The notes: a model not told the origin generated them from the letters alone. A stretch of 64,000 nt of DNA from an uncultured Candidatus Saccharibacteria bacterium (GCA_964345445.1 CAYFQT010000024.1:4634-68633); one strand, 5' to 3'. Positions 2,897 through 60,035 are shown, numbered from the stretch's first letter. A program made the numbers and translations.

Positions 2897-3205
2897 ATGA
2901 AAATAAAAAAGGATGATACAGTTTTAGTTATATGTGGGAAAGATCGAGGTAAGACAGGAAAAGTAGAAAAAGTTTTGCCTCAAAAAAATAAGATTGTAGT
3001 TTCAGGGGTTAATAAACTAAAAAAACATGTAAAACCTTCTTCTAAAAATCCACAAGGAGGAATTATTCAATTTGATGCTCCACTTGACATATCTAATGTA
3101 ATGTTATTATGTTCTCGATGTGATAGAACCACAAGAGTTGGATACAGAATATTAAAAGATGGAACAAAACAAAGGATTTGTAAAAAGTGTAAGGAAGCAG
3201 TATAA
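2897..3205 (+). CDS. rplX: 50S ribosomal protein L24 (KOW domain) with C-terminal CxxC...CxxC ribbon
   Basis: KIKKDDTVLVICGKDRGKTGKV is the KOW motif. ATG at 2897 follows RBS aaggagg. The C-terminus carries CSRC...CKKC. Confidence 0.85.
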   Translation: MKIKKDDTVLVICGKDRGKTGKVEKVLPQKNKIVVSGVNKLKKHVKPSSKNPQGGIIQFDAPLDISNVMLLCSRCDRTTRVGYRILKDGTKQRICKKCKEAV

Positions 3206-3386
3206 ACAGGATAGTTGCTGATAAATCAATGATGGCCACAGATTAAGGATTATGAATTACTAATTACTAATAACGAACCAGATCAGTAATCCGTGTTTAT
3301 TCGACTGAAAACTCGGGGTCCCAAAAATTGTAATGGAACAAAGCGGAATGTTAAGCAATTTTTGGGGTGAAAAAAAGAGGATAAAT
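3206..3386 (+). repeat. Family-1 intergenic element (contains exact 79-bp copy of 2805-2883)
   Basis: ataaatcaatgatggccacagattaaggattatgaattactaattactaataacgaaccagatcagtaatccgtgttta is identical in both spacers. Confidence 0.8.
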
Positions 3387-4138: not shown

Positions 4139-4419
4139 GTGCTGAAGGCACCTCCACAAATAACTCACAATTACAAAATATTACTCACAAATAGAAACTT
4201 GTTTGTCGGTTACGGTTACGAAACCCGCCCAGAAAGCTTTCTAGGCCCGTATCGTCTCTTGGTTACGAAGTTTGTCAATATAATGCTTGGATAACGTAGC
4301 CCTAACCGCCTCACGATACCCACTTCGTAACCCTAATCATAACTGATTAACTTTATAAAATAGTAATAGTGAGTCAAATGCTTGTTAAAGTGAGTAATAG
4401 TGATTTACCGGAGGTAAAT
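4139..4419 (+). repeat. Compound nested quasi-palindrome: family-3 arms (ttactcacaa / tagtgagtaa) flanking a family-6 core (ggttacg / cgtaacc)
   Basis: Left: aactcacaattacaaaatattactcacaaat. Core: cggttacggttacgaaacc...cgtaaccc. Right: aatagtaatagtgagtcaaatgcttgttaaagtgagtaatagtgatttaccggaggtaaatATG. Confidence 0.75.
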
Positions 4420-4857
4420 ATGACTGATCCAATAGCGGATATGTTAGTTAGAATAAGAAATAGTCAAATGGTTAAAAAAGAGTTTGTTATTGTTCCTTTT
4501 TCTAAAATTAAATGGGAAATAGGTAAAATTTTAGAAAAGGAAGGATTTATAAAAGATTGCAGTCGAATTAAGGCCAGTGATTTATATCAGGATAAGTCTT
4601 TTCGTCTCCGATTTTATAAAGGGAAAAATTTTCCTCAAATAAAAATTGAATTAAAATATTCTGATCAAAAACCAGCTGTATCTGGTCTTAGGCGAGTGAG
4701 TAAACCGGGCCGAAGAATTTATGTTAAAAAGGAAAAGTTACCTTATGTTTTAAGAGGATTAGGAATTGCTATTATTTCTACTTCTTTTGGTATAATGACT
4801 GACAAGGAGGCTAGGAAGAAGAAATTAGGAGGAGAAGTACTTTGTGAGATTTGGTAG
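4420..4857 (+). CDS. rpsH: 30S ribosomal protein S8
   Basis: [15 protein letters not shown]... is the S8 signature. ATG 4420 follows RBS ggaggtaaat. Confidence 0.9.
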
Positions 4858-4977: not shown

Positions 4978-5529
4978 ATGTCTAGAATAGGGAAAATGCC
5001 TATTAAAATCCCTGAAGGAATAAAAGTAAATATTCAAGGCAAAAAAATTACCACAAGTGGTCCTTGTGGAGAATTAAGCTATATTCTACCTGTTTGTATT
5101 GATGTGTTAGAGAAAGATAATAATTTAATTTTAAAAAGGAAAAATGAACAAAAAATTACTCGGAGCCTGCATGGCACTTCAAGAACTTTAATTTCTAATA
5201 TGATTTACGGAGTAACCAAAGGTTTTACAAAAGAATTAGAAATTTCTGGGATAGGTTTTAAAGCATCTAAAAAAGGTGATAATTTAGTATTACAAGTAGG
5301 ATTTTCTCATCCAGTAGAAATTAAACCTCCACAAGGAATAAGTTTTCAAGTTAACAAAAATATAATTACTGTTTTTGGAATTGATAAACAGAAAGTAGGT
5401 ACTATTGCTGCTAAAATCAGATCAGTTCGAAGGCCTGAACCTTATAAAGGCAAGGGAATTAAATATGTTGGGGAGGAAATAAAGAGAAAAGTAGGTAAGG
5501 CTGCTAAAGTAGGTACAGAAGGTCCATAG
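4978..5529 (+). CDS. rplF: 50S ribosomal protein L6
   Basis: MSRIGKMPIKIPEGIKV... is the L6 signature. RBS ggagcaaat is present. Confidence 0.9.
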   Translation: MSRIGKMPIKIPEGIKVNIQGKKITTSGPCGELSYILPVCIDVLEKDNNLILKRKNEQKITRSLHGTSRTLISNMIYGVTKGFTKELEISGIGFKASKKGDNLVLQVGFSHPVEIKPPQGISFQVNKNIITVFGIDKQKVGTIAAKIRSVRRPEPYKGKGIKYVGEEIKRKVGKAAKVGTEGP

Positions 5530-5610
5530 AAGTTAAAATTAGATTCCCTAAAAGAATGTTGCAGAGTGGGGGTGTAAAAAATTTCTGGGATGGTAAGAAG
5601 GGGTATAAGA

Positions 5611-5997
5611 ATGAGTAAATTAGATAAACAGAAATCTAGATTAAGACGAAAAAAAAGAATAAGATCAAAAGTTTTTGGTACAAAAAGAATACCTCGATTT
5701 TGTGTTACAATAAGTTTAAAACATATTTATGTGCAATTAATTAATGATGAGGAAGGAAAAACTATTTTAGCTGCTTGTGATAGCGAAATTGGAAAAAATA
5801 AAAAGTCTAAGAAAGATTTTAAAAAAAATAGTTTAAGTAGAAAAGTGGGATTGTCCTTTGAGGTAGGAAGGTTAGCAGCAAAGAAGGCAAAAGAGAAGAA
5901 AATAAAAAAGGTTGTTTTTGATCGCTCAGGATATAAATATCACGGTCGGGTAAAAGCAGTGGCTGAAGGGGCAAGAAAAGAAGGGTTGGAATTTTGA
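5611..5997 (+). CDS. rplR: 50S ribosomal protein L18
   Basis: MSKLDKQKSRLRRKKRIRSKVFGT...PRFCVTISLKHIYVQLI is the L18 signature. ATG 5611 is in frame with the track start 5590. Confidence 0.85.
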   Translation: MSKLDKQKSRLRRKKRIRSKVFGTKRIPRFCVTISLKHIYVQLINDEEGKTILAACDSEIGKNKKSKKDFKKNSLSRKVGLSFEVGRLAAKKAKEKKIKKVVFDRSGYKYHGRVKAVAEGARKEGLEF

Positions 5998-12078: not shown

Positions 12079-12250
12079 ATTTTCGTTAAGAGGTTAGGGT
12101 TATGAAATGTGTATCGTAGTTCGGTTACGGTTATGTGGAAATTAAATGACGTAACCGACTAACGTAACCGATACGGGCATCCTAACCTTAAACGTAACCG
12201 ATTTACAATCTCTAGTAAACTTTAGCAATATCTATCAACTATTTAGTAAC
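12079..12250 (+). repeat. Family-6 element (ggttagggttatg / ggttacggttatg mirrored by cgtaaccg x3 / cctaacc)
   Basis: gaggttagggttatgaaatgtgtatcgtagttcggttacggttatgtgg...gacgtaaccgactaacgtaaccgatacgggcatcctaaccttaaacgtaaccgat. Confidence 0.7.
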
Positions 12251-12378
12251 TAATATTAACCATTAATGTAGCTGCTCAATTTATTGAGCTAACAAAGCTG
12301 CTAATGCCGCTAAATCAGTAAGCTACTTGTTTCATATATAAAAGATTGCTATAATAAAGGAGTATCTAAACAAAATTT

Positions 12379-12657
12379 ATGGCAAAAAAAGAGAAGAAAA
12401 ATCCAAAATCGGCAACAGATAAGGATGAAATACAAGCCAAAAAGAAAAAAGAAGTGATCGAAGCCGAAGGAACCGTCCTAGAAACTTTGCCCAATGCTAC
12501 ATTCCGTGTAGAGTTAGAAAACGGGAATGTTATATTGGCTCATATTTCCGGTAGAATGCGAATGAATTATATCCGCATTATCCCTGGAGATAAAGTTACT
12601 GTGGAAATGACTCCTTATGATTTAACCAAAGGACGAATCACTTATAGACATAAGTAG
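12379..12657 (+). CDS. infA: Translation initiation factor IF-1 with Lys-rich N-terminal extension
   Basis: [60 protein letters not shown] is the IF-1 S1-fold signature. Confidence 0.9.
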
Positions 12658-12829
12658 CGACTTCGTCGCTACCACAGATAGCCACGGACAAATCACTGAT
12701 AACCACAGATCGCGGATCATAAATAACTGATAACGAATAATAGGTGATGAATAATAGATCAGTGATCAGTTGGCTATCCGTAACAAATCAGTGAAAATCC
12801 GCGTTTATCCGACTAAGGAGGATAATGGA
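12658..12829 (+). repeat. Family-1 element with covarying post-stop hairpin tagcgacttcgtcgcta
   Basis: ccacagatagccacggacaaatcactgataaccacagatcgcggatcat...gatcagtgatcagttggctatccgtaacaaatcagtgaaaatccgcgtttatccgactaaggaggataatgg. Confidence 0.8.
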
Positions 12830-12943
12830 ATGAAAGTTAGAGCTTCAGTTAAAAAAATATGTTCCAAATGTAAAATAGTCCGCCGCAAGGGGAAAGTGCG
12901 GGTTATTTGTGAAAATCCCAAGCATAAACAACGTCAGGGGTAA
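12830..12943 (+). CDS. rpmJ: 50S ribosomal protein L36 (not in the supplied ORF track)
   Basis: Manual translation gives [37 protein letters not shown], 37 aa with the canonical L36 Cys/His zinc motif. RBS aaggagg lies 6 nt upstream. It sits between infA and rpsM as expected. Confidence 0.85.
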
Positions 12944-13050
12944 GATGTCAGAAGTATCACAGGTGTCATTGGTGTCAAAGGATATATATGATAACCTCTG
13001 ATACTTTTGATACATTTGATACCTCTGACACCTGCGACGAAGGAGCAAAT
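12944..13050 (+). repeat. Family-2 element
   Basis: gatgtcagaagtatcacaggtgtcattggtgtcaaaggatatatatgataacctctgatacttttgatacatttgatacctctgacacctgcgac. Near-identical right arm to 4930-4970. Confidence 0.8.
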
Positions 13051-34000: not shown

Positions 34001-34096
34001 TTTTTCACTCGGTTATTAAAAACCAAGCATACACTTGGTTTTTTAGCACTAAGTATTTGACCTAAGGTCAATTATCCTTAGTGCCTTATTTAAAAC

Positions 34097-34351
34097 TTAT
34101 TTCCCAGAATTTTTCCCTTTTTCCCTTTTTCCTTTTTCAGTTTTCTTTCTTTCAGCATGAGCTATTTTAGCTTTAAATTTGTCCACCCTTCCTGCTGTGT
34201 CCACTAATTTTTGTTTTCCAGTATAAAAAGGGTGGCACTGGGAACAGATTTCCACCTTTAAATGAGGGATAGTGGCTCTGGTTTCAAAACTATAACCACA
34301 AGCACATTCAACTTGGGCTTTTATATATTTTGGATGAATATCTTTTTTCAT
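34097..34351 (-). CDS. rpmE: 50S ribosomal protein L31 (zinc form) with Lys-rich C-terminal tail
   Basis: [59 protein letters not shown] is the L31 signature. Confidence 0.9.
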
Positions 34352-34600
34352 TTTTACCTCTCTATTTCCGATTAACTTTTGTTAATCGGAACGAGCCGTT
34401 CTAGTCGCTTGCAAGCGACTAGAAATAGGCCGAAAAACACGGATTTACACAGATTTTTTATGGATAGCCACTGATCACTGATTTGGTCCATTACTCGTTA
34501 TCCGTTATTAGTTATCCGTGATCTGTGGCTATCAGTGATTTACCTGCCTGCCGGCAGGTCCGTGGCTATCTGTGGTAGAGCAGTGAAACTGCTACATATA
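34352..34600 (-). repeat. Family-1 element in minus orientation forming the 5' leader of rpmE
   Basis: Reverse complement reads gtagcagtttcactgctac (hairpin) caccacagatagccacggacctgccggcaggcaggtaaatcactgatagccacagatcacggataactaataacggataacg...aaatcagtgatcagtggctatccataaaaaatctgtgtaaatccgtgttttt...gagaggtaaaaATG. Confidence 0.8.
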
Positions 34601-34629
34601 ATTATACTAAATAAAAACCTTCTTAGCAA
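34601..34629 (-). promoter_or_regulatory. Candidate promoter for rpmE-prfA-prmC (TTGCTA-17-TATAAT on the minus strand)
   Basis: The minus strand reads TTGCTAagaaggtttttatttagTATAATtatatgtagcag. The predicted TSS falls at the gtagcagtttcactgctac hairpin that heads the family-1 leader. Confidence 0.45.
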
Positions 34630-34779
34630 TAAGAATTTGATAACATAAGAATTTGATAATTTACTTAATTAATTTTGATATATTTTAACTTTAGAGTCAT
34701 AAGTAAGACAAAAATTGGTAATTTCTTCCATACTTTCAAGTATGAGAGTTTTTTCCATTTTTTCATAATTAAATTTTTC

Positions 34780-34807
34780 TTGCATTTTGGGTTTAATTTG
34801 GTATACT
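34780..34807 (+). promoter_or_regulatory. Candidate promoter for rpsB-tsf-pyrH-frr (TTGCAT-16-TATACT)
   Basis: cTTGCATtttgggtttaatttggTATACTg, 180 nt upstream of rpsB. The leader contains hairpin cccgatgactatcggg. Confidence 0.4.
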
Positions 34808-34988
34808 GTTTTTTGTTTGGAAATTTCTTGATTCTATTTTAAAATTTGTTTATACTATTATTGAATATAGATATAAGAGATAAGAGATAAGTTCTAATCA
34901 CACACGTCTTCAGACTATCTTTTCCTTGCCCCGATGACTATCGGGATCATAAGATAGGGAGAAGGAGGCGGCGGAAAGAAAGGAAAAA

Positions 34989-43620: not shown

Positions 43621-44178
43621 ATGAAGACTTTTTTAAGTGGAATAATTATATTTTTTGCTGTGATTTTGCAAGTTACAATTTTGCCTAAAATAACTATTTG
43701 GGAAGTAATGCCTAATTTAATTCTTCTATTGATTGTTTGCCAAAGTGCAATTAAAGGATATAAAGAAGGAATGGTTTGGGCTTTCTCTTGTGGGCTTCTT
43801 TTGGATTTTTTCTCCAATGTATATTTTGGAATTTTCTCTTTAATTTTTTTGTTTATTGCTTTTATTGTTAGTTTTGTAACCAAAAAATTTTTGGGAAAGA
43901 TTGGTTTATTATCCATAATAATTATTTCTGTAATTTCTACTATAATGTTTGATTTTATTTTTCTCTCAGTTATAAAAATTAATGTTTTAAGTTCAGAAGT
44001 TATTTTGGATTTTATTCGTTCTACTTTTCCTGAGTATTTTATTCAAATAATATTTAAAGAAATAATCTTCAATGCTTTTCTAGCAATTATTGTTTATCTT
44101 TTATTGTTTAAATTTAATGATTGGTTAAAATATTATGAAGGTAGGGTTAGATTACCTGGTGATTTTTATCGAAGATAG
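43621..44178 (+). CDS. mreD: Rod-shape determining protein MreD-like polytopic membrane protein
   Basis: Small 5-TM protein following mreC. Assigned mainly by synteny. Confidence 0.6.
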   Translation: MKTFLSGIIIFFAVILQVTILPKITIWEVMPNLILLLIVCQSAIKGYKEGMVWAFSCGLLLDFFSNVYFGIFSLIFLFIAFIVSFVTKKFLGKIGLLSIIIISVISTIMFDFIFLSVIKINVLSSEVILDFIRSTFPEYFIQIIFKEIIFNAFLAIIVYLLLFKFNDWLKYYEGRVRLPGDFYRR

Positions 44179-44224
44179 TAATTTTTCGAATGAGATGAGA
44201 AAAATTCTACACCGGAGGTGCAAG

Positions 44225-46204
44225 ATGAAAAAAAATAACATTTTTGGAGAACATTACGAAGGTATTTCCAAAGATAATAAAAAAAGATTTATTGATGGAA
44301 ACATTGATAATTTAGAAGAAGACTGGACAGATGCATTAACACATTCAGATGAAGAAATGCCTGAAAGTGAAACAAAAGTTAGTTTTAGGAGCATCGTTTT
44401 CTTTCATCTGGTTATTTTTTTGATTTTTGTTTTTTTATCTTCTGGACTCTGGTATCTTCAAATTTTAAATGGAAAATATAATCTTTCTTTAGCTGAAGGT
44501 AATCGCATCCGTACAACAACCGTAAGAGCTAAAAGAGGAATAATCTATGATAGAAACAAAAAACAACTTACAGAGAATACCCCTAACTTTGAAATCAGTA
44601 TAGTTCCCGCAGATTTACCTAAGGATGAAAGCCAAAGAGATAATTTTTATAATAATCTAGCAGCAGTTTTAGGGATAGATCCCCAGGAAATTAAAAAAAT
44701 GGTAGAAGAAAAAGGATATGATACCTATGAACCTGTAATAATCAAAAAAGATGTAGACAGAGATACTAAGATGATGTTTGAGCTTAAACATAATCAGTTT
44801 TACCAGGCTCATTTATCTGAAAATCCTACCCGAGAATATACCGAAAAAAATATATTTTCCCATATTATTGGTTATATAAGTAGGATTGATGAGAAAGAAC
44901 TAGAAGAGAAAAGAAATTCTCCCGAAGAAGCTGATATTAATTATGCTTTGAATGATTATATTGGCAAAACTGGTTTAGAATATTCTTATGAATCTACATT
45001 ACATGGGAAAAATGGAAGAGAAAGGGTAGAAGTAGATGCAGATGGAAAAGTAATCAAGGTTCTAGCTTCAGAACCACCCCAGCCAGGAGAAAGTCTGGTC
45101 CTATCTATAGATTCTGATTTGCAAAAAGAAGTAACTAAATATTTACAAGAAGGAATTGCTAATGTTAGGTCAACTTCTGGGGCTGCTGTTGCTTTAAATC
45201 CTCAGACAGGGGAAGTTTTAGCTTCAGTTTCTCTGCCAGATTTTGATAATAATTTGTTTGCTAAAGGTATATTGCCTGAAGATTACCAGAGCCTACTTAT
45301 TGATTCTAAAAAACCTTTATTTAATAGAGTAATTTCTGGCACTTATCCTTCTGGATCCACTATTAAGCCAGTTGTTGGGGCTGCAGGTCTTCAGGAAGGA
45401 ATAATAAGTTCAGGTTCATATATTCACTGTCCAGGGGTGATTGAAGTTCCTAATCAATATAATCCGGAAATTATTTATAAATTTCCCTGTTGGAATTTAG
45501 CAGGGCATGGCTCAGTTGCTATAATTGATGCTATTGCCCAATCTTGTGATGTGTTTTTCTACACGGTAGGTGGAGGATATCAAGGAAGAAAGAGTTTGGG
45601 TTTAGAAAAACTTAGACATTATATGGCCCTTTTTGGACTGGGGGAGCAGACAGGTATTGATTTACCTAATGAAGATTCTGGGTTGGTTCCTTCCGAGGAA
45701 TGGAAAATAAATGCAAAGGGAGAAACTTGGTATCAAGGAGACACTTATCATATGTCTATAGGGCAAGGAGATCTCCTGGCTACCCCTTTACAAGTGGCAA
45801 ATTTCACAGCAACTGTTGCCAATGGTGGTAAATTATATAAACCTCAGGTTGTTCGTCAAATAATAGATGTAAATGGTCAGGTAACAAGAGATTTTACTCC
45901 TTTTGTAATTCGAGAAAATTTTATTTCTGAAAGTAACATTAATCTTGTTCGTCAAGGGATGCGCAAGGTAGTGACATCAGGCACTGCCAGGAGCTTAAAT
46001 TCCTTACCTGTTCCTGCAGCTGGAAAAACAGGTACAGCTGAATATGGATTTTATGGTGAAAAAAAGCATGCTTGGTTTACTTGCTTTGCTCCCTATGATA
46101 ATCCTCAAATTGCTTTAGTTGTTTTAATTGAAGGTGGGGGAGAGGGTCATGATGCTGCTGTTCCCGTAGCCGGTAAAATATTACAATATTATTTCACCCG
46201 TTGA
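44225..46204 (+). CDS. mrdA: Penicillin-binding protein 2 (elongation transpeptidase)
   Basis: Dimerisation domain YLQILNGKYNLSLAEGNRIRTTTVRAKRGIIYDRN. Transpeptidase motifs SGSTIKP (SxxK), SIGQGD and KTGTAE. ATG 44225 follows RBS ccggaggtg; the track start 44135 overlaps mreD. Confidence 0.85.
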   Translation: MKKNNIFGEHYEGISKDNKKRFIDGNIDNLEEDWTDALTHSDEEMPESETKVSFRSIVFFHLVIFLIFVFLSSGLWYLQILNGKYNLSLAEGNRIRTTTVRAKRGIIYDRNKKQLTENTPNFEISIVPADLPKDESQRDNFYNNLAAVLGIDPQEIKKMVEEKGYDTYEPVIIKKDVDRDTKMMFELKHNQFYQAHLSENPTREYTEKNIFSHIIGYISRIDEKELEEKRNSPEEADINYALNDYIGKTGLEYSYESTLHGKNGRERVEVDADGKVIKVLASEPPQPGESLVLSIDSDLQKEVTKYLQEGIANVRSTSGAAVALNPQTGEVLASVSLPDFDNNLFAKGILPEDYQSLLIDSKKPLFNRVISGTYPSGSTIKPVVGAAGLQEGIISSGSYIHCPGVIEVPNQYNPEIIYKFPCWNLAGHGSVAIIDAIAQSCDVFFYTVGGGYQGRKSLGLEKLRHYMALFGLGEQTGIDLPNEDSGLVPSEEWKINAKGETWYQGDTYHMSIGQGDLLATPLQVANFTATVANGGKLYKPQVVRQIIDVNGQVTRDFTPFVIRENFISESNINLVRQGMRKVVTSGTARSLNSLPVPAAGKTGTAEYGFYGEKKHAWFTCFAPYDNPQIALVVLIEGGGEGHDAAVPVAGKILQYYFTR

Positions 46205-46272
46205 TATAAATATCAAGGTTCAAAAATCAAAATTTAAAATGTAAAATATATATTTGATTTTTTAATAAAACT

Positions 46273-46301
46273 CTTGACATGTTTAAAAAAATTTGCTAAT
46301 A
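46273..46301 (+). promoter_or_regulatory. Sigma70-type promoter (TTGACA-17-TAATAT) with extended AACTCTTGACA box, driving the 46.3-47.65 kb ORF-free region
   Basis: aaactcTTGACAtgtttaaaaaaatttgcTAATATcag. Confidence 0.5.
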
Positions 46302-46309
46302 TCAGACCC

Positions 46310-47350
46310 TACTGACTAATTTTTGAAATTTGACAAAGAATTAATAGTTTGTTAATATATTTTTTACATAACGAACATTGAAAATTAATATATAAATGTC
46401 TTCCATTTTAATCTAGCGAGAGGCAAAAATTGCTGGCTCGAGGAATCGGATCTGGCTCAGTATCTGAGCCGGGCCGCATTTTGCGCTTGATTCTATTCGT
46501 ACTATTAAATCGCTGAAAAAGAGCCAGCTTTCCTACTAGCTATCTTCGCGTCAGTTGTCTATAGTTTTCAATTATGTATAGACAGTTGCATACATGCCCC
46601 AGTTAACTGGATATATAGAATTGCATGTATGAGCGTGGCGCGTCAATGATCTGTAGTTGTCAATTATGTACAGATGGTTGCATATATGCCCCGGAATATC
46701 CGGATAGGTAGAATTGCATATGTGAGCCCAAGCTAGTAGGAAATATGATGAGAGGGGAAGGGAGACTCTGTTCTGGAAGGAATAAAAGGGTTTTAGGCTA
46801 AATATTCAGGGAGAGTACTGTTCTCTTGACAGTTGCCAGGCATTATAGATCAAATGTTGAATCTCTTCTTGGGCATCTTTTTTACTTAGAAAAAATTTGA
46901 GTCTTGTTCAACCAGCCCAGAAGAACAAGATTTATACCCCTCTCATTACCTTTTTTGATTTCAGTTTGGACTGGGTGGTAAGTAAAATTATAGGAAAGGT
47001 GGCATAACCTCCTGAGATTTCAAAATTGGATATTTTTATTAAGCCACCCAGTCCACCAAAGTTGTACCTGGGGATTGTAAGTGATGGGTAGGGAAGTCCG
47101 AACTTCTCCATCCCCGATAATTTCGTCCGAAAGGACTAGGAAAAAGCGGACTAACCCAGGCACATACTTAGCAACAGATTTGTTTTTTGCAGCTTTATAT
47201 CTAAGGATATAAGGTGCTAGGGTGTAATTTACAAGCTGTTGCTGGACATTTCTTATTGTGATAAAATTCGCCGCGTGTAACACAGGGAGAAAGGGAATTT
47301 TGGAGATTTCCCTAGTGATTGAAAAAATTTTCCTTCTCTCTGGTCAACTC
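46310..47350 (+). ncRNA. Candidate large structured non-coding RNA or very long structured 5' leader (ORF-free, GC-elevated)
   Basis: No credible ORF over ~1.3 kb; local GC is well above the ~30% background. Immediately downstream of the consensus promoter. Many perfect hairpins: 46454-46470; the domain 46532-46740 with two covarying modules; 46903-46929; the 11-bp inverted repeat 46968-46978 / 47044-47054. Confidence 0.35.
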
Positions 47351-47424
47351 AACAGCAAAGATGTAGTGTTTTTGCACAACATTTCCCATCTTTGCTGTTT
47401 TTTAAATCTTCAATATTATCTTGT

Positions 47425-47470
47425 AAATATATAAAAGTATCGCGGTCGCGATAAAATAATATATTTTGAT
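47425..47470 (-). repeat. Third, inverted copy of the AT-flanked cgcg-core element (aaagtatcgcggtcgcgataaaataatatatttt)
   Basis: Near-identical to the reverse complement of copies A/B (one substitution in the core). Contains the quasi-palindrome ATCGCGgtCGCGAT. Confidence 0.7.
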
Positions 47471-47507
47471 ATTTTAAGTTATTGTTAAAAAGACAGTTTA
47501 ATGCTAT

Positions 47508-47654
47508 ACTTTTTAATAATGGAAACTCTGCGGGCAAATACCCGCATTTTCCCAAAGAAACTGTTTTCTTATTGTACCGAGAAAATTTTACCAAATTCTC
47601 CCATAGTTTATGCCAAGATTTTTATTCGGTACAGTATAAAAGGAGCATAGATTT
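47508..47654 (+). promoter_or_regulatory. Leader RNA element copy A (aaactctgcgggc...acccgcattttcccaaag...tgtaccgagaaaat...cggtacagtataaaaggagc) upstream of folD
   Basis: Homologous to 49276-49466. Stem gcggg/cccgc. Stem tgtaccgag/tcggtaca flanks the RBS. Confidence 0.45.
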
Positions 47655-48500
47655 ATGGCCGCTAAAATTTTAGATGGAAAAAAAATAGCAGAAAAAATTT
47701 TAAGCAAGGTAGGAAAAGAAACAGAGAATTTTAAAAAACAAGGAATTATTCCTTGCTTAGCTTGTATTCTAGTAGGCCAAAATCCTGCCTCCCAAATTTA
47801 TGTAAGAAATAAAAAAGAAGCTTGTGCTAAAACTGGGATAGTTTTTCGATTGTTTTCTTTTTCTGAAAATGTGACTGAAGAGGAAATTCTTGATAAAATA
47901 AGGGAATTTAATTTAGATAAATCAATTCATGGAATTATAGTTCAACTACCTTTACCAGAATATATTAATAACCAGAAAATTATAGAATCTATTTCACCCC
48001 AAAAAGATGTAGATGGATTTCATCCTCAAAATTGGGGAAAATTAGCCTATAATGAAAAAGGATTTGTCCCAGCTACTCCAGCAGGTATTTTAAGATTATT
48101 AGATGAATATAATATTTCACTAGCTGATAAATATGTTGTGGTTGTTGGTATGAGTAATATCGTGGGGAAACCTTTGGCTTTGCTTTGTCTGCAGAGAAAT
48201 GCTACAGTAACTGTTTGCCATAAAAAAACTAAAAATTTAAAAAATCATACCAGAGGTGCTGATATTTTGATTTCGGCAACCGGAGTTCCTAAATTAATTA
48301 AAAAAGATATGGTTGGTAAAGATGCCGTTGTGGTTGATGTAGGAATAAATAGAGTTGATGGTAAAATAACAGGCGATGTAGATTTTGATAATGTAAAAAA
48401 TATTGCCAGTTTTATAACTCCCGTACCTGGCGGAGTAGGACCAATGACAGTAACTATGCTTCTGGTAAATGTAATTTTTGCAATAAATAAAAATACTTGA
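47655..48500 (+). CDS. folD: Bifunctional methylene-THF dehydrogenase/methenyl-THF cyclohydrolase
   Basis: MAAKILDGKKIAEKIL...CLACILVGQNPASQIYVRNKKEACAKTGI...GIIVQLPLP are FolD signatures. Confidence 0.9.
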   Translation: MAAKILDGKKIAEKILSKVGKETENFKKQGIIPCLACILVGQNPASQIYVRNKKEACAKTGIVFRLFSFSENVTEEEILDKIREFNLDKSIHGIIVQLPLPEYINNQKIIESISPQKDVDGFHPQNWGKLAYNEKGFVPATPAGILRLLDEYNISLADKYVVVVGMSNIVGKPLALLCLQRNATVTVCHKKTKNLKNHTRGADILISATGVPKLIKKDMVGKDAVVVDVGINRVDGKITGDVDFDNVKNIASFITPVPGGVGPMTVTMLLVNVIFAINKNT

Positions 48501-49275: not shown

Positions 49276-49466
49276 AAACTCTGCGAGCATCTGCCCGCCA
49301 ATAACTTCCTGCCCGATCGTGCCTCGCAGTGGCAGGCGGGCATACCCGCATATTCCCGAAGATATAGTTTTCATACTGTACTGAGAAAACTAGCGCCAGA
49401 TTAGTCCCAAAAGCTTTGACTACGAGTTTTCTCTGGTACAGTATAGAAGCTAAAATAGGAAATTGA
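49276..49466 (+). promoter_or_regulatory. Leader RNA element copy B (longer, with ~35-nt insertion) upstream of the membrane protein gene
   Basis: aaactctgcgagcatctgcccgcc...ctcgcagtggcaggcgggcatacccgcatattcccgaag...actgtactgagaaaact...gagttttctctggtacagtatagaagc. Complementary stems ctgcgag/ctcgcag and ctgcccgcc/ggcgggcat. Confidence 0.45.
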
Positions 49467-50087
49467 ATGCTAAAGATATTATCAAAAAGCTTTCAAGTAT
49501 TTCTGCGGCTTAAAAAAATAATAATTTTGGTATTTTTATTATATATTTTTTCTTTTTTAGTTGGATATATTTTAGTAGGGGTATATAAGCTGGAATGGAT
49601 TTTAGAATATAGAGAAAATATAGTCCAAGATATTTTTCAAACAGGTCCTTTTAAACAGATTATTATTTTTTTATTTCAAGAAAAGTTTATATTATCAATT
49701 ATTTTGACTTTTGGTTATAATTTAATTATAGGAGCTTTCCTAACCACGACTTTAGTTGGAGTGGTATTTTTTATTCCACTTATTGTTACTGCATTAAGAG
49801 GTTGGATTTCCGGAATTATTTTTTTTGGAGTTTTTACTACTTTTGGAAGAACTGTCTTAGCTTTAGGAACTTTATTTTTAGAATTTCTAGCTTATTCTTT
49901 ATCCGCAGCCGGAGGTATACATATAGGGCTTTCTCTTATTAAACCCTGTCGATATAAAACAAAAAGGCGCATAAAAGGTTTAATTTTAGCATCTCTTGAT
50001 GTACTCTATTTATATTTATTTATTGTGATATTATTAGCATTGGGTGCAGTTTGGGAAATAATAGGAATTGTTTTATTAAATTTTTAA
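49467..50087 (+). CDS. Hypothetical polytopic membrane protein
   Basis: About 6 TM helices and no motif recognised. Preceded by the structured leader element at 49276-49466. Confidence 0.5.
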   Translation: MLKILSKSFQVFLRLKKIIILVFLLYIFSFLVGYILVGVYKLEWILEYRENIVQDIFQTGPFKQIIIFLFQEKFILSIILTFGYNLIIGAFLTTTLVGVVFFIPLIVTALRGWISGIIFFGVFTTFGRTVLALGTLFLEFLAYSLSAAGGIHIGLSLIKPCRYKTKRRIKGLILASLDVLYLYLFIVILLALGAVWEIIGIVLLNF

Positions 50088-51642: not shown

Positions 51643-51648
51643 ATAACT

Positions 51649-51677
51649 CTTGACAAGGATTATATATCTTTATAAAA
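51649..51677 (+). promoter_or_regulatory. Candidate promoter (AACTCTTGACA-17-TAAAAT) abutting the lysK terminator hairpin
   Basis: taactcTTGACAaggattatatatctttaTAAAATaaaacttgcc. Ambiguous because the terminator hairpin starts 4 nt downstream. Confidence 0.3.
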
Positions 51678-51680
51678 TAA

Positions 51681-51710
51681 AACTTGCCTTTAAAAATAGG
51701 CAAGTTTTTT
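51681..51710 (+). terminator. Rho-independent terminator after lysK
   Basis: aacttgcc tttaaaaata ggcaagtt tttttg. Confidence 0.5.
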
Positions 51711-52385
51711 GAAAATTGAATTTAATTATCCCAGGTAGGTGGCAAAAAAACAAGAACACTGCTCCTTATTCCTTTTCGGGGAAAAGGAGAGATGTTATCA
51801 TGTGTTCTATTGTGGCGCTCAAGTTTTAAAACCCTATTCTTTAGGATTAAAGAACAAGAGTGTACCACCAGCACTTATCTGGGATGCAATTTATGCCGCG
51901 GTAAAGTAAGAAGTGAAAGAGCGATAAATTGAAAAAAATAAGCCCAAAATAAAAGCGAAAGAGGGGATTTGAGGCTAGAAAATATTCAAAAAAACCTTCA
52001 CTTGTTTGCTTTTTTGCCGCGGCGCCAGCTTCCCCATGGTTAACAGAAGCATGGGTCTCGAAAACCAAGGGGAATGAATTGAATCTTGGGGAGGACAGTT
52101 AAAAAAGATGTGAGTAACTACCTCAAATGTGGATTAGATCTTTATTTGAGGTTATTATTGTCCTCCCCGCCAAGTTTGGAGAGAAGTAGTGTAAATTCCA
52201 CATTTTCCTCATGTTGTCCCTTGCAGCATGACCTCCTTTGGCTGTACTACATGAACCTCTCCTTTTTTCTTTTTACCCTTGATAATTGAGGGTATTTTTT
52301 TTATACTTATATTAGCACACAGCACACCTGCCTGCCGGCAGACAGGTAGCATATAGCCCAAGTCTAATTTCATTATGGAGTAATT

Positions 52386-56870: not shown

Positions 56871-57425
56871 ATGAAACTTACTCTTACTGAAAAATTATTA
56901 ATTGTTCTAAATGAAATTTTTGAAGATATAGATGATGTAGTCACCACGCATACCTGGAATGATTATTTTAAAAAAATATACAATAAGACACCTGTTAGAG
57001 AAAGAGTAAGATCAACAATTCAATATTTGGAAAAAAAGAAATATGTTGAGGTATATAAGGGAGAAAAAGGAAAATTATATAAGATTACTCCATATGGTAG
57101 AAATAAAATTCGTAGTTATATATTTTCTGAAGAAAACTGGGACAAAAAATGGAGGATTGTTATATTTGATATTCCGGAAGACAAGAAGAATGATAGGGAT
57201 TATTTTAGATATAAATTAAAAGAATTAGGATTTAAAAAATTACAAAAGAGCGTCTGGGTTTGTCCTTTTGATATAATAGATGAAACAAAAGAATTAGTAA
57301 ATAAACTTAGAGTAAAATCATATGTAAAATGTATATTGGCAGACTATATTGATGATCAAGAAAAATTTCTATCTAAATTTATAGTTGATAATAAATCATT
57401 AACAGTAAAGAATAAAAAATATTAA
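56871..57425 (+). CDS. PaaX-like regulator: N-terminal winged-helix plus C-terminal Cas2/VapD-fold (PaaX_C-like) domain
   Basis: N-terminal wHTH-like segment STIQYLEKKKYVEVYKGEKGKLYKITPYG. C-terminal WRIVIFDIPEDKKNDRDYFRYKLKELGFKKLQKSVWVCP matches the Cas2/PaaX_C beta-alpha-beta pattern. The gene is bracketed by identical 40-bp direct repeats. Confidence 0.6.
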   Translation: MKLTLTEKLLIVLNEIFEDIDDVVTTHTWNDYFKKIYNKTPVRERVRSTIQYLEKKKYVEVYKGEKGKLYKITPYGRNKIRSYIFSEENWDKKWRIVIFDIPEDKKNDRDYFRYKLKELGFKKLQKSVWVCPFDIIDETKELVNKLRVKSYVKCILADYIDDQEKFLSKFIVDNKSLTVKNKKY

Positions 57426-57463
57426 AAATTTTAAGAATATTATTAATATATAAAATATATAAA

Positions 57464-57503
57464 ATATATAAATATACCGCGACCGCGATAGAAATATATA
57501 TTT
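57464..57503 (+). repeat. 40-bp direct repeat, copy B
   Basis: Identical to copy A. Lies 39 bp downstream of the PaaX-like gene stop. Confidence 0.85.
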
Positions 57504-57696
57504 GAAATTTTTGAATTTACAACCAATTTTAGTTTTTTAAATTTATAAAGAATTTTTCTAAGATTTTTATCTGTTTGATAAAAATCTTTTTTTATATTTG
57601 AATAGGTTTTTTAAATTATATAACTTTTATATTAATTTTGGATAAGGGCTTGAAAACCCTTATAAATAGGCAAAAAAAAGTTTTTTAAAAAAACTC

Positions 57697-57725
57697 TTGA
57701 CAAGTGAAGAATAATTTGTTACAAT
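57697..57725 (+). promoter_or_regulatory. Consensus sigma70-type promoter (TTGACA-17-TACAAT) with extended AACTCTTGACA box
   Basis: aaaactcTTGACAagtgaagaataatttgtTACAATact, preceded by an A/T tract. Confidence 0.55.
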
Positions 57726-57731
57726 ACTATC

Positions 57732-58139
57732 TTCTAAATTAAAAATAAAATAATACAAAAACCCTTCTATGTTTCTGCGGACAAGAAAGCTTTGGAGGAC
57801 AGTCCCTAAACCAAAAATCAATTCAGGGCAAGCAGAAACAAAAAACAAAAACCAACAAAATACAGTTTTGAGTTTGAGTATTTAGTCTGAGTTTATTTAT
57901 ACTCATAGTTCCAACTCTAAGCTCAAAACTACACCGTTGGTTTTTTAATTTGCACATTAAATTTTTTATCTTGTTTTTATCTTATCTCGATCTTTATCGA
58001 GATGACGTGGGGGCGTTGAACTATGATCTGTAATTGGTCACTTGGATTATAGGGAGCCAGTAGTGAAACCGGCCACAAATTAGCTTTTAGCACTTAGCAC
58101 ATAGTGCTTAGCTAAAAGATATAAAGGCCGGTTTTTTTA
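57732..58139 (+). ncRNA. Candidate small/medium non-coding RNA transcribed from the 57697 promoter and ending at the 58068-58139 terminator
   Basis: No ORF. 5' stem gtttctgc...gcagaaac encloses ggac...gtcc. Hairpin atctcgatctttatcgagat. Terminal hairpin aaaccggcc...agcttttagcacttagcac atag tgcttagctaaaag...ggccggttttttt. Confidence 0.3.
58068..58139 (+). terminator. Long compound terminator hairpin
   Basis: aaccggcc ... ggccggtt plus a U7 run, with the inner perfect stem agcttttagcacttagcac / gtgcttagctaaaag. Confidence 0.5.
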
Positions 58140-58378
58140 TAACACGGATTAACGCGGATTGGTTACGGATAGACACGGATATTATATAGTGTGTAGAATT
58201 CTGCGTAGGTAATTTAGTCTGTCTACCGTCCTTGGCAGACTACAAATTTACCTATGCAGATTCCTATTCATTATATTAGTTCTTTGATATTTTAAAAATA
58301 AATATAAGGTAATCCTCGGGGGAACTTGAGGGCGAAAACTTGATTATAAAATATTGTAGTCAAATTTTCGTCCTTAAA

Positions 58379-58404
58379 GGGCCCCGCGAGGGGCCCTTTA
58401 TTTG
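58379..58404 (+). terminator. Rho-independent terminator (GC-clamp hairpin)
   Basis: gggcccc gcga ggggccc followed by tttattt. Confidence 0.55.
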
Positions 58405-58664
58405 GATTTTGTTGTTAAGGACGAAAAGGACGAAAATATCAAAAGATGAAAACTTTTTACCCTGATGCTCTCCAACTCTGGAGGAGCATTCTGGCCCAGA
58501 AGGGAAAAGTGGAAATCTTTTGTTAAGTTTTACTGTTTGGCTTCCGTATTTAATTTACGGAAATTTGATCCAGAGTCGAAATAGATGTTTTTGGTTCGAT
58601 GGTACAGTCCATCGAACTGTAGATCTAGTCGAAATTTCTGATTTAAAAGGAAGGAGTGAAGAAC

Positions 58665-60035
58665 ATGTCTATAAAAGACAGATTGTCGAGTTTTTGGGGC
58701 TGGCTGAGAAGATTGCGCCGTGAGACGCGAAGCCAGCTTAAGCTCTGTTGGATTCCGTTTACAGCAGTTGTAGTAATGTTAGCAGTAATAGCTAGTACAA
58801 ATTATTATGCTATAGCGTCAGTTAGACAAACACCAGCTGAAGCAAAAGAAATTTTAAAAGACATCAAGACAGAACGAAAAACATTCAAGCAAGATATGCG
58901 TAGGGAACGAGAAGCCTTTTTTGAAGAGTTTAAGAAGGCACGAGAGGAGCAAGGAGCTAAAACTGAGGTAGTTGAAACAACTGAAGCAAAAGCAACCCAG
59001 GCAGCGGCAGTTCAGGTGACTGAGGAGTATCCATTAATGATGAGTGGAATCCCCTGTGAAATGACAGCAAAGAACATTAAGAAATTAGTGGCGGCACAAC
59101 CTGTGGCGATCCAGCAGGCTTACAATGATCGGGCACAGAGCCTGGGATATTCTGACTTTCAGAGTATTCCTAAAGGTGATATGAGTTTTGAAACCCTTCA
59201 GTATGGAGGGATGTATAAAAACTCATATTACAAAGGTGGGGTAGTGCGCTTCGTCCGGATGTATATTGCATCTGGTACCCCTGTTCTAGTAGTAGAGGGT
59301 AATGTTTTCGCCAAGACTAATTGCGGAAACATTTTGTACCCAGCACCAGCTCCAAAACCAGCCCCGAGTCGGAGAGTTGTGCACAGAGTAGAGCGGGTGG
59401 AAGTCAAGGAATATGAGACAGTCATTATTCGTATTTTTGAGAAAGAAGAATATATAGAGAAGATTGTCAAAGTTCCTTGTGAAAAGCCTGTTGTAGAACA
59501 AAAACCTTGCCAGGTTCCACCACAGTTTCCACCAACTCAGGAACAGAAGGATTTCGAGCAAGAGCAAAAAGATAAAGAGCCTACAAAGAAGCCTTGTCCT
59601 CCTAAGGAACCAAAACCAAAAGAGCCGCAAGAACCTCAAGAACCTCAGGAGCCACAAGAACCAGACCAAAAGCAAGAGCCTGATCAGAAACAAGAACCTG
59701 ATCAGAAACAAGAACCAGACCAAAAGCAAAAGCCAACAGTAACGCAGAATCAAACTGAAGTTCAGCAGGATCAGAAGCAGGATACAAAACAGGAAGAACA
59801 GCAAGTACAGGAACAAAAAGAACAGCCGACAAAACAAGAATCAACAGTAAAACAGCAAGAAGAAACAAAACAGGAGCAGCAGCAATCACCAAAGCAAGAA
59901 ACTCAGCAACAACAGACCCAGACTCAGCAAAAGCAAACTCAACAACAGAACCAGCAACAACAGAACAATCAGCAGAATCAACAGCAAAATCCAGTACAAC
60001 AAAACTCGGTACAGCAAGCACCAAACACAAGTTAA
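58665..60035 (+). CDS. Hypothetical signal-anchored secreted protein with globular central domain and long P/E/Q/K-rich low-complexity C-terminus
   Basis: TM at WIPFTAVVVMLAVIAS. Repeats PKEPQEPQEPQEPQEPDQKQEPDQKQ then a poly-Gln tail. Region GC is higher than the genome background. ATG 58665 follows RBS aaggag. Confidence 0.5.
   Translation: MSIKDRLSSFWGWLRRLRRETRSQLKLCWIPFTAVVVMLAVIASTNYYAIASVRQTPAEAKEILKDIKTERKTFKQDMRREREAFFEEFKKAREEQGAKTEVVETTEAKATQAAAVQVTEEYPLMMSGIPCEMTAKNIKKLVAAQPVAIQQAYNDRAQSLGYSDFQSIPKGDMSFETLQYGGMYKNSYYKGGVVRFVRMYIASGTPVLVVEGNVFAKTNCGNILYPAPAPKPAPSRRVVHRVERVEVKEYETVIIRIFEKEEYIEKIVKVPCEKPVVEQKPCQVPPQFPPTQEQKDFEQEQKDKEPTKKPCPPKEPKPKEPQEPQEPQEPQEPDQKQEPDQKQEPDQKQEPDQKQKPTVTQNQTEVQQDQKQDTKQEEQQVQEQKEQPTKQESTVKQQEETKQEQQQSPKQETQQQQTQTQQKQTQQQNQQQQNNQQNQQQNPVQQNSVQQAPNTS

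What the first reader, a model, noticed from the sequence alone, without database searches (positions are those of the whole stretch)
46532..46740. A 209-nt domain: 10-bp closing helix enclosing two tandem homologous three-hairpin modules with compensatory changes
cctactagct (46532-46541) pairs perfectly with agctagtagg (46731-46740). Inside lie two ~91-nt tandem modules (46548-46639 and 46640-46730) that align base for base. Each has hairpin 1 (tgtctata/tatagaca in one, atctgta/tacagat in the other: an A-U to G-C covariation). Each has hairpin 2 (catacatg/catgtatg in one, catatatg/catatgtg in the other: C-G to U-G). Each has an apical palindrome (ccagttaactgg in one, ccggaatatccgg in the other: stem kept, loop changed). 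Structure is conserved under sequence change between the duplicated modules, which is strong internal evidence for a functional RNA fold. Tandem aptamer-like modules inside a single P1 helix recall cooperative tandem riboswitches or a pseudo-dimeric ribozyme core. The sequence matches no riboswitch consensus I know.
Basis: seen in the sequence. Interest (0 to 1): 0.75.

Follow-up and report, generated by a model that had tools for sequence, protein, structure and literature searches.

The report
Duplicated arm of unknown large RNA
The 209-base element is a real folded RNA domain, but it is not a switch for the folD gene: it is a recently duplicated side-arm of a previously undescribed, roughly 1,050-base non-coding RNA gene, found so far in only three uncultured marine-sediment bacteria that are probably Patescibacteria.

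Summary
A perfect 13-bp helix (46529-46541 / 46731-46743) encloses two tandem 92-nt modules that are 80% identical. Their stems keep pairing through compensatory changes.

The closest relative found (L070, PBP2 87% identical) has the same domain at the same place with one module. Its closing helix covaries with the window's. So the fold is under selection on the + strand.

The riboswitch or ribozyme reading for folD is not supported.
- The domain lies at about +164 to +378 of an ORF-free transcription unit of about 1,040-1,095 nt.
- That unit has two tandem near-consensus promoters (46274-46358) and its own terminator (47351-47405).
- folD has its own promoter.
- A second relative (L002) keeps the large RNA, with about 14 compensatory pairs in other domains, but has unrelated sequence where this domain sits.
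- More distant relatives lack the RNA yet keep folD.

Nothing matches Rfam 15, phages or plasmids. Scans of genome, metagenome and viral collections found no further copies.

Best reading: a lineage-specific, duplicated peripheral domain of a new large modular ncRNA of unknown function. Only three loci are known, so covariation statistics are weak.

The parts
46274..46302 (+). Promoter P1 of the large RNA: TTGACA, 17 nt, TG-n-TAATAT.
   Evidence: Consensus scan gives 10 of 12 matches plus an extended -10. The promoter is conserved in L002 at 4348-4376 and is visible in L070 at about 3185-3215.
46330..46358 (+). Promoter P2: TTGACA, 17 nt, TG-n-TAATAT. The predicted start is near 46365.
   Evidence: Conserved in L002 at 4403-4430 and in L070.
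46366..46431 (+). 5' leader. It includes GAACAUUGAAAA (46373-46384), a boxA-like stretch, and AAUCUAGCGAGAGGC.
   Evidence: This block is 84% identical to L002. The boxA resemblance rests on memory plus the consensus GYTCTTTAANA from PMC5725501. It was not tested.
46432..46528 (+). Domain D1, closed by GCUGGCUC / GAGCCAGC. It is shared by the window, L070 and L002.
   Evidence: RNAalifold on the three sequences gives 30 pairs, 7 of them with changes on both sides.
46529..46541 (+). 5' arm of the closing helix (P1) of the finding's domain, D2.
   Evidence: Perfect 13-bp inverted repeat. In L070, 12 of 13 pairs are kept, with 2 changes on both sides and 1 wobble.
46547..46638 (+). Module 1. H1 is 46552-46563 / 46577-46588 with loop 46564-46576. 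H2 is 46589-46597 / 46623-46631. The apical hairpin is 46599-46610 and the bulge is 46611-46622.
   Evidence: The covariance model scores it at 115 bits.
46639..46730 (+). Module 2. H1 is 46644-46655 / 46669-46680. H2 is 46681-46689 / 46716-46724. The apical hairpin is 46691-46703.
   Evidence: The covariance model scores it at 104.5 bits.
46731..46743 (+). 3' arm of the closing helix P1 of D2.
46748..46946 (+). Domain D3, closed by AUGAGAGGGG / CCCCUCUCAU. Conserved with L002.
   Evidence: RNAalifold on window versus L002 gives 53 pairs, 7 with changes on both sides.
46968..47054 (+). Domain D4, a long hairpin GGACUGGGUGG / CCACCCAGUCC that follows the invariant UUUUGAUUUCAGUUUGGA.
   Evidence: MFE fold. 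L002 has this module twice, with different but still complementary stem sequences.
47067..47160 (+). Domain D5, a window-specific variable domain closed by CCUGGG / CCCAGG.
   Evidence: MFE fold only. It does not align with L002.
47168..47342 (+). Domains D6 (47168-47245) and D7 (47283-47342), the most sequence-conserved part.
   Evidence: About 77% identical to L002. The helices are kept through one-sided changes only.
47351..47405 (+). Intrinsic terminator of the large RNA: a 13-bp stem (47351-47363 / 47387-47399) followed by TTTTTT.
   Evidence: It is conserved in L002 with two one-sided wobble changes.
47482..47510 (+). folD's own promoter. It is not part of the RNA and is listed because it separates folD from the element.
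   Evidence: Conserved in L002 at 5946-5974.

Best explanation
The 215-nt element (46529-46743) is a genuine, + strand, structured RNA domain. It is an accessory side-arm of a previously undescribed non-coding RNA of about 1,040-1,095 nt.

**The host RNA.**
- It is transcribed from two tandem strong promoters.
- It is built as a string of helix-closed domains, D1 to D7.
- It ends at its own intrinsic terminator about 250 nt before folD.

**Origin of the arm.**
- It sits at a fixed junction between D1 and D3.
- It is specific to the window + L070 lineage. L002 carries about 180 nt of unrelated hairpins at that junction.
- In the window it has undergone a head-to-tail duplication of its 92-nt module.

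**Module anatomy.**
- Each module is two hairpins whose stems drift by compensatory change.
- Two single-stranded elements stay nearly invariant: the 13-nt H1 loop GUUUUCAAUUAUG and the 12-nt H2 bulge AUAUAUAGAAUU.

**Inferred mechanism.** The stems act as scaffolds. They present these two motifs as a docking surface, either for each other (a possible CAAUU/AAUUG pseudoknot) or for a partner protein or RNA. Duplication doubles the number of presented sites.

**Shown:** the fold, the covariation, the transcription-unit signals, the copy-number variation, and the independence from folD.

**Inferred:** actual transcription, the docking role, and any function of the host RNA.
For: **Fold and strand.**
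- MFE is -76.6 kcal/mol, z = -5.9, and the fold is kept in the full-length context.
- 8 of 75 pair cells are G.U. These would be A.C on the other strand, so the + strand is favoured.

**Selection on pairing.**
- Three module copies give 25 pairs, 97.3% paired, and 6 pairs with changes on both sides.
- Only 2 of 500 shuffles reach this. Slid controls are 17-48% paired.
- P1 covaries between orthologues.

**Part of a larger conserved RNA.**
- The 1450-nt gap has no ORF longer than 87 aa and no Pfam or PHROG hits.
- L002 has the same synteny and a homologous 1703-nt ORF-free gap.
- D1 has 7 compensatory pairs and D3 has 7.
- Promoters and terminator are conserved.
- GC is 39.6% in the RNA body, against 32.3% for the window and 17% in the promoter spacer.

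**Variable arm.**
- L070 has one module in the same P1 frame.
- L002 has none.
- L002 has instead duplicated a different module, the D4-type hairpin.

**Not folD-linked.** L071/L005, L004 and L075 lack the RNA, and wherever the contig reaches that far (L071/L005, L004) folD is still there; L075 runs straight from PBP2 to greA and shows no folD at this spot.
Against: - Only three loci carry the RNA, and only two carry the domain. Covariation counts are therefore small.
- Module copies M1 and M2 are paralogues in one molecule. Templated repair within palindromes could mimic compensation.
- There is no expression data.
- The excess of variable columns in stems (16 of 50) over loops (4 of 26) is not significant (Fisher p = 0.17).
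- In L070 the single-module domain is followed, 130 nt later and with no terminator, by an ORF whose ribosome-binding site lies in a long hairpin. There the 5' part could act as an mRNA leader.
- The proposed loop-bulge docking involves only invariant bases, so covariation cannot test it.
- The host RNA's function is unknown.
Confidence: 0.7

Rival explanations
1. The domain is a cooperative tandem riboswitch, or a pseudo-dimeric ribozyme, that senses a one-carbon or folate metabolite and controls the downstream folD.
For: There are two homologous structured modules inside one closing helix, and folD is the next gene downstream. The loops are nearly invariant, as expected of a binding pocket.
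Against: - No aptamer family matches, even at E <= 10.
- About 610 nt of further structured RNA, a terminator and a separate conserved folD promoter lie between the domain and folD.
- L002 has the same folD and the same large RNA but no such domain.
- L071/L005 and L004 have folD with no RNA at all.
- Copy number of 0, 1 or 2 among close relatives is not how cooperative tandem aptamers behave.
Confidence: 0.04
2. The 215-nt unit is a small non-autonomous mobile element of the MITE or BOX type. Terminal inverted repeats would flank a variable number of internal modules. It would have landed in the RNA gene and is merely tolerated there.
For: It has perfect 13-bp terminal inverted repeats. Its build is modular, with 1 or 2 internal units. 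It is absent from L002 at the same junction.
Against: - There is no second copy in the 64-kb window or in any fetched relative locus.
- The module pattern could only be scanned against viral contigs, and its single hit there failed the covariance model. The whole 1,171-nt RNA, domain included, matches no phage or plasmid record.
- The sequence shows no target-site duplication: the flanks are ...GCCAGC and TATGAT....
- The arms covary between orthologues rather than keeping a transposase-recognition sequence.
- G.U pairs make the fold strand-specific.
- L070 has the unit at the orthologous position, which points to vertical descent.
Confidence: 0.1
3. Promoters, leader, D1 and D2 form a cis-acting 5' cassette. 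It could be a stabiliser, or a regulatory leader bound by a protein or ligand, placed in front of different payloads: an ORF in L070 and further non-coding domains in the window and L002.
For: In L070 the single-module domain is followed by a long hairpin that contains the AAGGAGGG ribosome-binding site. An ORF then starts at 3666, and no terminator lies between.
Against: - L002 keeps the promoters, leader and D1 but not D2, so D2 is dispensable for any cassette function.
- The window and L002 have no ORF downstream before the terminator.
- The L070 contig ends 130 nt into the ORF, so its context is incomplete. The ORF has no homologue in the window or L002.
Confidence: 0.1
4. The region is non-functional, hairpin-rich spacer DNA. 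The apparent compensation would come from DNA-level palindrome maintenance or from chance.
For: The window is generally enriched in perfect inverted repeats, with 8 loci against about 2 expected. The sample is only three loci.
Against: - The promoter pair and the terminator are conserved.
- GC is raised over exactly the predicted transcript.
- About 20 compensatory pairs are spread over D1, D2 and D3.
- G.U pairs are asymmetric between strands.
- A 1-1.5 kb spacer would be unusual if, as the PBP2 homologues suggest, this is a small streamlined Patescibacteria genome.
Confidence: 0.06

Closest known systems
Large structured bacterial ncRNAs of unknown or partly known function: OLE, GOLLD, ROOL, raiA, HEARO/omega RNA.
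   Same: The host RNA is about 1 kb or more and ORF-free. It has its own promoter and terminator. It has many helix-closed domains, some with covariation. Its phylogenetic range is narrow and its peripheral domains vary between lineages.
   Different: - No covariance-model match to any of them.
- The host is Patescibacteria-like, not Firmicutes or phage.
- No partner gene such as oapA or IscB, and no tRNA or phage neighbourhood.
- The architecture looks like serial domains rather than one large multi-way junction. That is a prediction only.
Expansion segments and peripheral extensions of conserved RNAs: rRNA expansion segments, variable arms of RNase P RNA, peripheral domains of group I introns.
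   Same: A lineage-specific helical insertion sits at a fixed junction of a conserved core and is closed by its own helix. It is replaceable by unrelated sequence in a sister lineage and grows by local duplication.
   Different: The host RNA is not any of these molecules. No function is known for the core, so 'peripheral' is inferred only from dispensability in L002.
Tandem-aptamer riboswitches, such as the glycine riboswitch.
   Same: Two homologous structured modules lie side by side in one RNA, bracketed by a common helix.
   Different: There is no aptamer match, no adjacent expression platform and no association with a regulated gene. Copy number varies among close relatives.
Modular repeat elements that fold when transcribed: pneumococcal BOX elements, Correia/NEMIS, ERIC.
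   Same: Inverted-repeat ends enclose a variable number of internal modules, and the RNA hairpins are stable.
   Different: It is single-copy in all sequence available. The arms covary, there is no target-site duplication, and it is inherited at one orthologous site.

Membership tests
Known riboswitch aptamer classes (glycine, THF-I/II, ZTP, SAM and others) | Sequence and structure match to the class covariance model. | tested here: not met
   Rfam 15 gives no hit at gathering score over the whole window. It also gives no hit at E <= 10 over 46150-47700 overlapping 46529-46743. L070 gives none at E <= 5.
Known riboswitch aptamer classes (glycine, THF-I/II, ZTP, SAM and others) | The aptamer lies in the 5' UTR directly upstream of the controlled ORF, with an overlapping expression platform. 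| tested here: not met
   About 610 nt of further structured RNA, an intrinsic terminator (47351-47405) and a separate folD promoter (47482-47510) intervene. In L070 an ORF follows 130 nt after the domain, which leaves that locus inconclusive.
Known riboswitch aptamer classes (glycine, THF-I/II, ZTP, SAM and others) | The element is kept with the regulated gene in related genomes. | tested here: not met
   folD is present without the domain in L002, L071/L005 and L004.
Known riboswitch aptamer classes (glycine, THF-I/II, ZTP, SAM and others) | Specific ligand binding. | not testable with these tools
   This needs in-line probing or ITC.
MITE / BOX-type modular repeat element | Terminal inverted repeats. 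| tested here: met
   13-bp perfect inverted repeat.
MITE / BOX-type modular repeat element | Multiple dispersed copies in the genome. | tested here: not met
   No other copy was found in the 64-kb window or in relatives' loci, by pattern or by covariance model. The one viral pattern hit failed the model. The rest of the genome was not available.
MITE / BOX-type modular repeat element | Target-site duplication flanking the ends. | tested here: not met
   Read directly from the sequence. The flanks are GAGCCAGC | ... | TATGATGA, with no direct repeat.
Described large ncRNA families (OLE, GOLLD, ROOL, raiA, HEARO) | Match to the family covariance model. | tested here: not met
Described large ncRNA families (OLE, GOLLD, ROOL, raiA, HEARO) | Characteristic gene neighbourhood: oapA for OLE, IscB/TnpB for HEARO, phage or tRNA for GOLLD and ROOL. 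| tested here: not met
   The neighbours are mreBCD-PBP2 and folD-greA. There is no tRNA in the window and no phage similarity.
Structured non-coding RNA gene (generic criteria) | ORF-free, bounded by a promoter and a terminator, conserved in synteny, with helices supported by compensatory change. | tested here: met
   The statistical power is low because there are only three sequences.
Nus-factor (boxA) antiterminated transcripts | A boxA element in the leader. The gamma-proteobacterial consensus is GYTCTTTAANA (PMC5725501). | tested here: inconclusive
   The leader GAAC(A/U)UUGAAAA at 46373-46384 is conserved in L002 and, with one change (GAACUUUGAUAA), in L070. It matches the consensus only in part. 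The boxA of this lineage's rRNA operons could not be retrieved.

The most novel reading that the evidence does not exclude
The whole 46366-47405 transcript, with its 1.5-kb counterpart in L002, is a new class of large modular structured RNA. It is confined to a clade of marine-sediment Patescibacteria. It is expressed from rRNA-like tandem promoters and evolves by gain, loss and tandem duplication of helix-closed modules. The finding's domain is a functional binding or self-association arm whose copy number tunes the RNA's valency.
Probability: 0.45. Interest if true: 0.8.

Novelty: new variant of a known kind. Interest (0 to 1): 0.62.

Why it matters
Large structured non-coding RNAs are rare in bacteria. 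Each new class (OLE, GOLLD, ROOL) has revealed unexpected biology.

Patescibacteria have tiny, streamlined genomes. A gene of 1-1.5 kb that codes for no protein, sits behind two near-consensus promoters and keeps its helices through compensatory change is therefore unlikely to be idle.

This locus also offers a natural series with 0, 1 or 2 copies of one domain, and with 1 or 2 copies of another domain in L002. That shows how such RNAs grow by module duplication, and it gives ready-made constructs for structure probing or cryo-EM.

For the scan itself, the result corrects a tempting but wrong 'folD riboswitch' annotation.

Tried and rejected
- **Rfam.** Gathering score over the whole window, and E-value mode on the window gap, the L002 gap and L070. 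Only chance-level hits came back.
- **Genome-collection protein scan.** The PBP2 scan of genome contigs found no relative, so neither source genome is in that collection.
- **Exact-pattern scans for the core RNA.**
  - The 19-mer in metagenome contigs returned only the L002 contig plus two chance hits, L007 and L008.
  - The 18-mer in genome contigs gave 61 hits, all unrelated coding contexts.
  - Five viral-contig scans gave only chance hits.
- **Covariance model of the module.** It found no further copy in the window or in the related and viral loci fetched up to that point (L002-L005, L070-L073).
- **Phages and plasmids.** blastn in distant mode found no match.
- **More relatives through proteins.**
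  - folD, full PBP2 and the C-terminal 130 aa of PBP2 yielded only four organisms in the clade.
  - More distant relatives (L003, L004, L074, L075) show no copy of the RNA: L004 and L075 have no room for it at this locus, while L003 begins at folD and L074 ends 210 nt after PBP2, so those two are uninformative.
- **Coding hypotheses.** The small ORFs in the gap have no Pfam or PHROG support and are not conserved in L002.
- **tRNA or tmRNA.** None in the window.
- **Literature.** No described large ncRNA in Patescibacteria turned up.
- **Ideas considered and dropped.**
  - TIGR arrays: the unit size is wrong and there is no Tas gene.
  - Type III antitoxin repeats and retron msr/msd: there is no toxin or reverse-transcriptase gene.
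  - A replication origin: the helices covary.
  - Pairing between the leader and the H1 loop: the leader is equally conserved in L002, which lacks the module.

Full report
**1.

- Positions 46529-46541 (TTTCCTACTAGCT) and 46731-46743 (AGCTAGTAGGAAA) form a perfect 13-bp inverted repeat.
- Between the arms lie two head-to-tail units, 46547-46638 and 46639-46730. They share 71 of 89 aligned positions and differ by one indel.
- As RNA, the + strand folds into exactly the reported architecture at -76.6 kcal/mol. Shuffles average -51.9 +/- 4.2, and none of 200 fold as well. The same fold appears when the whole 1045-nt region is folded.
- Each unit has three elements:
  - H1, up to 12 bp, with a 13-nt loop GUUUUCAAUUAUG.
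  - H2, 9 bp.
  - Inside H2, a 4-bp apical hairpin and a one-sided 12-nt bulge AUAUAUAGAAUU.
- Between the two units:
  - Four pairs change on both sides and stay paired.
  - Two change on one side and stay paired.
  - One is lost.

**2. Surroundings**

- The element lies in a 1450-nt stretch (46205-47654) with no ORF over 87 aa. It sits between the PBP2 gene of an mreB-mreC-mreD-PBP2 cluster and folD-greA.
- The small ORFs in the stretch have no Pfam or PHROG support.
- Two near-consensus promoters in tandem, each TTGACA-17-TGnTAATAT, lie at 46274-46302 and 46330-46358.
- A 13-bp-stem hairpin followed by TTTTTT lies at 47351-47405.
- folD has its own promoter at 47482-47510.
- GC content is 39.6% over 46366-47405. 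The window as a whole is 32.3% and the promoter spacer is 17%.
- The predicted fold of the region is a series of helix-closed domains, D1 to D7. The finding is D2.
- No Rfam 15 family matches anywhere in the region, even at E <= 10.

**3. Relatives**

- The source looks like an uncultured Patescibacteria (CPR) bacterium. PBP2 homologues at 45-54% identity carry that name.
- The same sequence sits in a sediment metagenome assembly from the Gulfs of Kathiawar.
- Protein searches with folD and PBP2 found only four organisms in the close clade.

| Locus | Source | PBP2 identity | What lies between PBP2 and folD |
|---|---|---|---|
| Window | Kathiawar sediment | - | About 1.05-kb RNA with two D2 modules |
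| L070 | Logan SRR22387873 | 87% | 84-aa ORF, then promoters, leader, D1 and a single-module D2. An ORF follows and the contig ends. |
| L002 | Loki's Castle sediment | 79% | Homologous 1703-nt ORF-free gap, no D2 |
| L071/L005 | JGI | 78% | No large RNA |
| L004, L075 | More distant | about 54% overall (L004); about 61% over a C-terminal fragment (L075) | No large RNA |

*L002*
- It has identical synteny. The promoters, leader, D1, D3, D4, D6, D7 and terminator are all recognisable.
- D1 shows 7 pairs with changes on both sides across three sequences. D3 shows 7. The 3' domains keep their helices through one-sided changes only.
- L002 has no counterpart of D2. At the D1/D3 junction it carries about 180 nt of unrelated hairpins.
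- It also carries an extra insertion of about 300 nt after the leader.
- It has two tandem copies of the D4-type 'CAGUUUGG + long hairpin' module.

*L070*
- After an extra 84-aa ORF it has the same promoters, a shorter leader and D1. Then comes a single-module version of the finding.
- The single-module version is closed by UUUCCUGUUAGCC / GGCUAAUAGGAA. Twelve of 13 pairs are kept relative to the window, with U-A to C-G, C-G to U-A and A-U to G.U.

*Relatives without the RNA*
- L071/L005 and the more distant relatives L004 and L075 have no large RNA at this locus.
- L071/L005 and L004 still have folD. The short L075 contig goes straight from PBP2 to greA.

**4. Strength of the structural evidence for D2**

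- Aligning M1, M2 and the L070 module gives 25 pairs:
  - 97.3% of cells are paired.
  - Six pairs change on both sides.
  - Only 2 of 500 column shuffles reach these values.
  - Sliding the partners by 1-3 columns drops pairing to 17-48%.
- Eight of 75 cells are G.U. These would be A.C on the opposite strand. That agrees with the + strand orientation of the promoters and terminator.
- Variable columns are more frequent in stems (16 of 50) than in the H1 loop and H2 bulge (4 of 26). The difference is not significant (p = 0.17).
- M1 is closer to the L070 module (86.5%) than to M2 (79.8%). Two histories fit this: the duplication is older than the split from L070, or M2 evolves faster.

**5. What it is not**

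*Not a riboswitch or ribozyme for folD*
- No aptamer family matches.
- There is no adjacent expression platform. About 610 nt of RNA, a terminator and a promoter separate the domain from folD.
- The domain is dispensable in relatives with the same folD.

*Not a mobile element, on present evidence*
- A covariance model of the module finds only the three known copies in the window and fetched loci.
- Pattern scans of viral, genome and metagenome collections gave only chance hits.
- Phage and plasmid blastn found nothing.
- There is no target-site duplication.
- The 'terminal repeats' covary rather than staying fixed.
- The rest of the genome could not be examined, so a few distant copies cannot be excluded.

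**6. Most likely mechanism**

- *Shown:* D2 is a selected, strand-specific RNA fold. It is embedded in a conserved, promoter- and terminator-bounded non-coding unit, and its copy number differs between close relatives.
- *Inferred:* it is a peripheral, expansion-type arm. Its stems are scaffolds for two nearly invariant single-stranded motifs.
  - These motifs contain complementary CAAUU and AAUUG. They could pair as a pseudoknot within a module, or serve as contact sites for a protein or another RNA.
  - Because they never vary, this cannot be tested by covariation.
- Module duplication would double such sites.
- Another domain of the same RNA is duplicated in L002. This suggests that growth by tandem duplication of helix-closed modules is a property of the family.
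- The leader contains GAAC(A/U)UUGAAAA. This resembles boxA antitermination signals of rRNA leaders (consensus GYTCTTTAANA in gamma-proteobacteria, PMC5725501). Long untranslated transcripts are known to use such signals (PMC7665894). This is a lead, not a result.
- The main complication is L070. There the 5' part, including the single module, is followed without a terminator by a hairpin holding a ribosome-binding site and then an ORF. A leader-type role in that genome cannot be excluded.

**7. Comparison with known systems and novelty**

- The host RNA resembles the 'large ornate' bacterial ncRNAs in size, domain richness, narrow distribution and variable periphery. It matches none of their models or gene contexts.
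- D2 behaves like an expansion segment of a conserved RNA.
- I rate it a new class within a known kind, not a new mechanism, because no function is established.

**8. Verdict**

- The finding is real and its structural inference is correct. Its functional interpretation is wrong.
- The more interesting object is the undescribed RNA of about 1 kb that contains it.
- Confidence that D2 is a structured domain of a larger ncRNA is about 0.7.
- Interest is 0.62. It is limited by there being only three loci and no expression or functional data.

Noticed in passing
window 47530-47642 and 49336-49449: A leader of about 115 nt is present twice, 73% identical. One copy lies between the folD promoter and the folD start. 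The other lies upstream of the 206-aa membrane-protein gene (49467-50087). It has a GCGGGC...CCCGC hairpin followed by a U-run, and a long-range helix GUACCGAG / UUCGGUAC. L002 lacks it at both places. No Rfam match. It could be a small cis-regulatory element or a small repeat.
   Followed up: partly
window 51643-52385; L002 9868-10303: The 743-nt gap between the class I LysRS and SerRS genes has no ORF over 73 aa. It has its own TTGACA promoter at 51650. It is 79% identical over 454 nt to the same gap in L002, with 8 compensatory pairs in the RNAalifold consensus. No Rfam match. This is a second candidate for an unknown ncRNA.
   Followed up: partly
window 58000-58083 (+): A c-di-GMP-II riboswitch aptamer scores 69.9 bits in what appears to be a Patescibacteria genome. 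The next long ORF (58656-60035, 459 aa) has no Pfam domain. The ORF upstream (56871-57425) has a PaaX_M / Cas2-like domain.
   Followed up: partly
L002 about 5325-5445 and 5446-5612; also 4530-4830: The L002 version of the large RNA has its own tandem duplication of the 'CAGUUUGG + long hairpin' module, which is single in the window at 46960-47054. It also has an insertion of about 300 nt after the leader. Within that insertion, GCCUCCCGCUAG can pair either with the upstream CUAGCGAGAGGC or with the downstream GGCGGGAGGC.
   Followed up: partly
L070 2791-3045 and 3541-3797; L071 2048-2240: The closest relative has an 84-aa coiled-coil-like ORF between PBP2 and the RNA promoters. It has weak PHROG hits to hemolysin XhlA-like families and a homologue in L071. 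After the single module comes a long hairpin that sequesters AAGGAGGG, followed by an ORF beginning MGTYDFLKGPCPVCGED. The contig end cuts that ORF. It has no homologue in the window or L002.
   Followed up: partly
window 46418-46423, 46750-46757 and 46937-46944: The leader sequence GAGAGG and the 5' strand of D3 (GAGAGGGG) are both complementary to the 3' strand of D3 (CCCCUCUC). Alternative pairing is therefore possible. Full-length minimum-free-energy folding pairs the leader GAGAGG with a strand beyond D3.
   Followed up: no
window 1-64000: ARAGORN finds no tRNA or tmRNA gene in 64 kb. Several other ORF-poor gaps of 700 nt or more exist: 1688-2403, 12079-12987, 34001-34988 and 57426-58655. 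That is unusual for a streamlined genome.
   Followed up: no
window 44135-44225: The mechanical PBP2 ORF starts at 44135. Alignment with the L002 orthologue begins at the Met at 44225 (MKKNNIFG), which is the more likely true start.
   Followed up: partly
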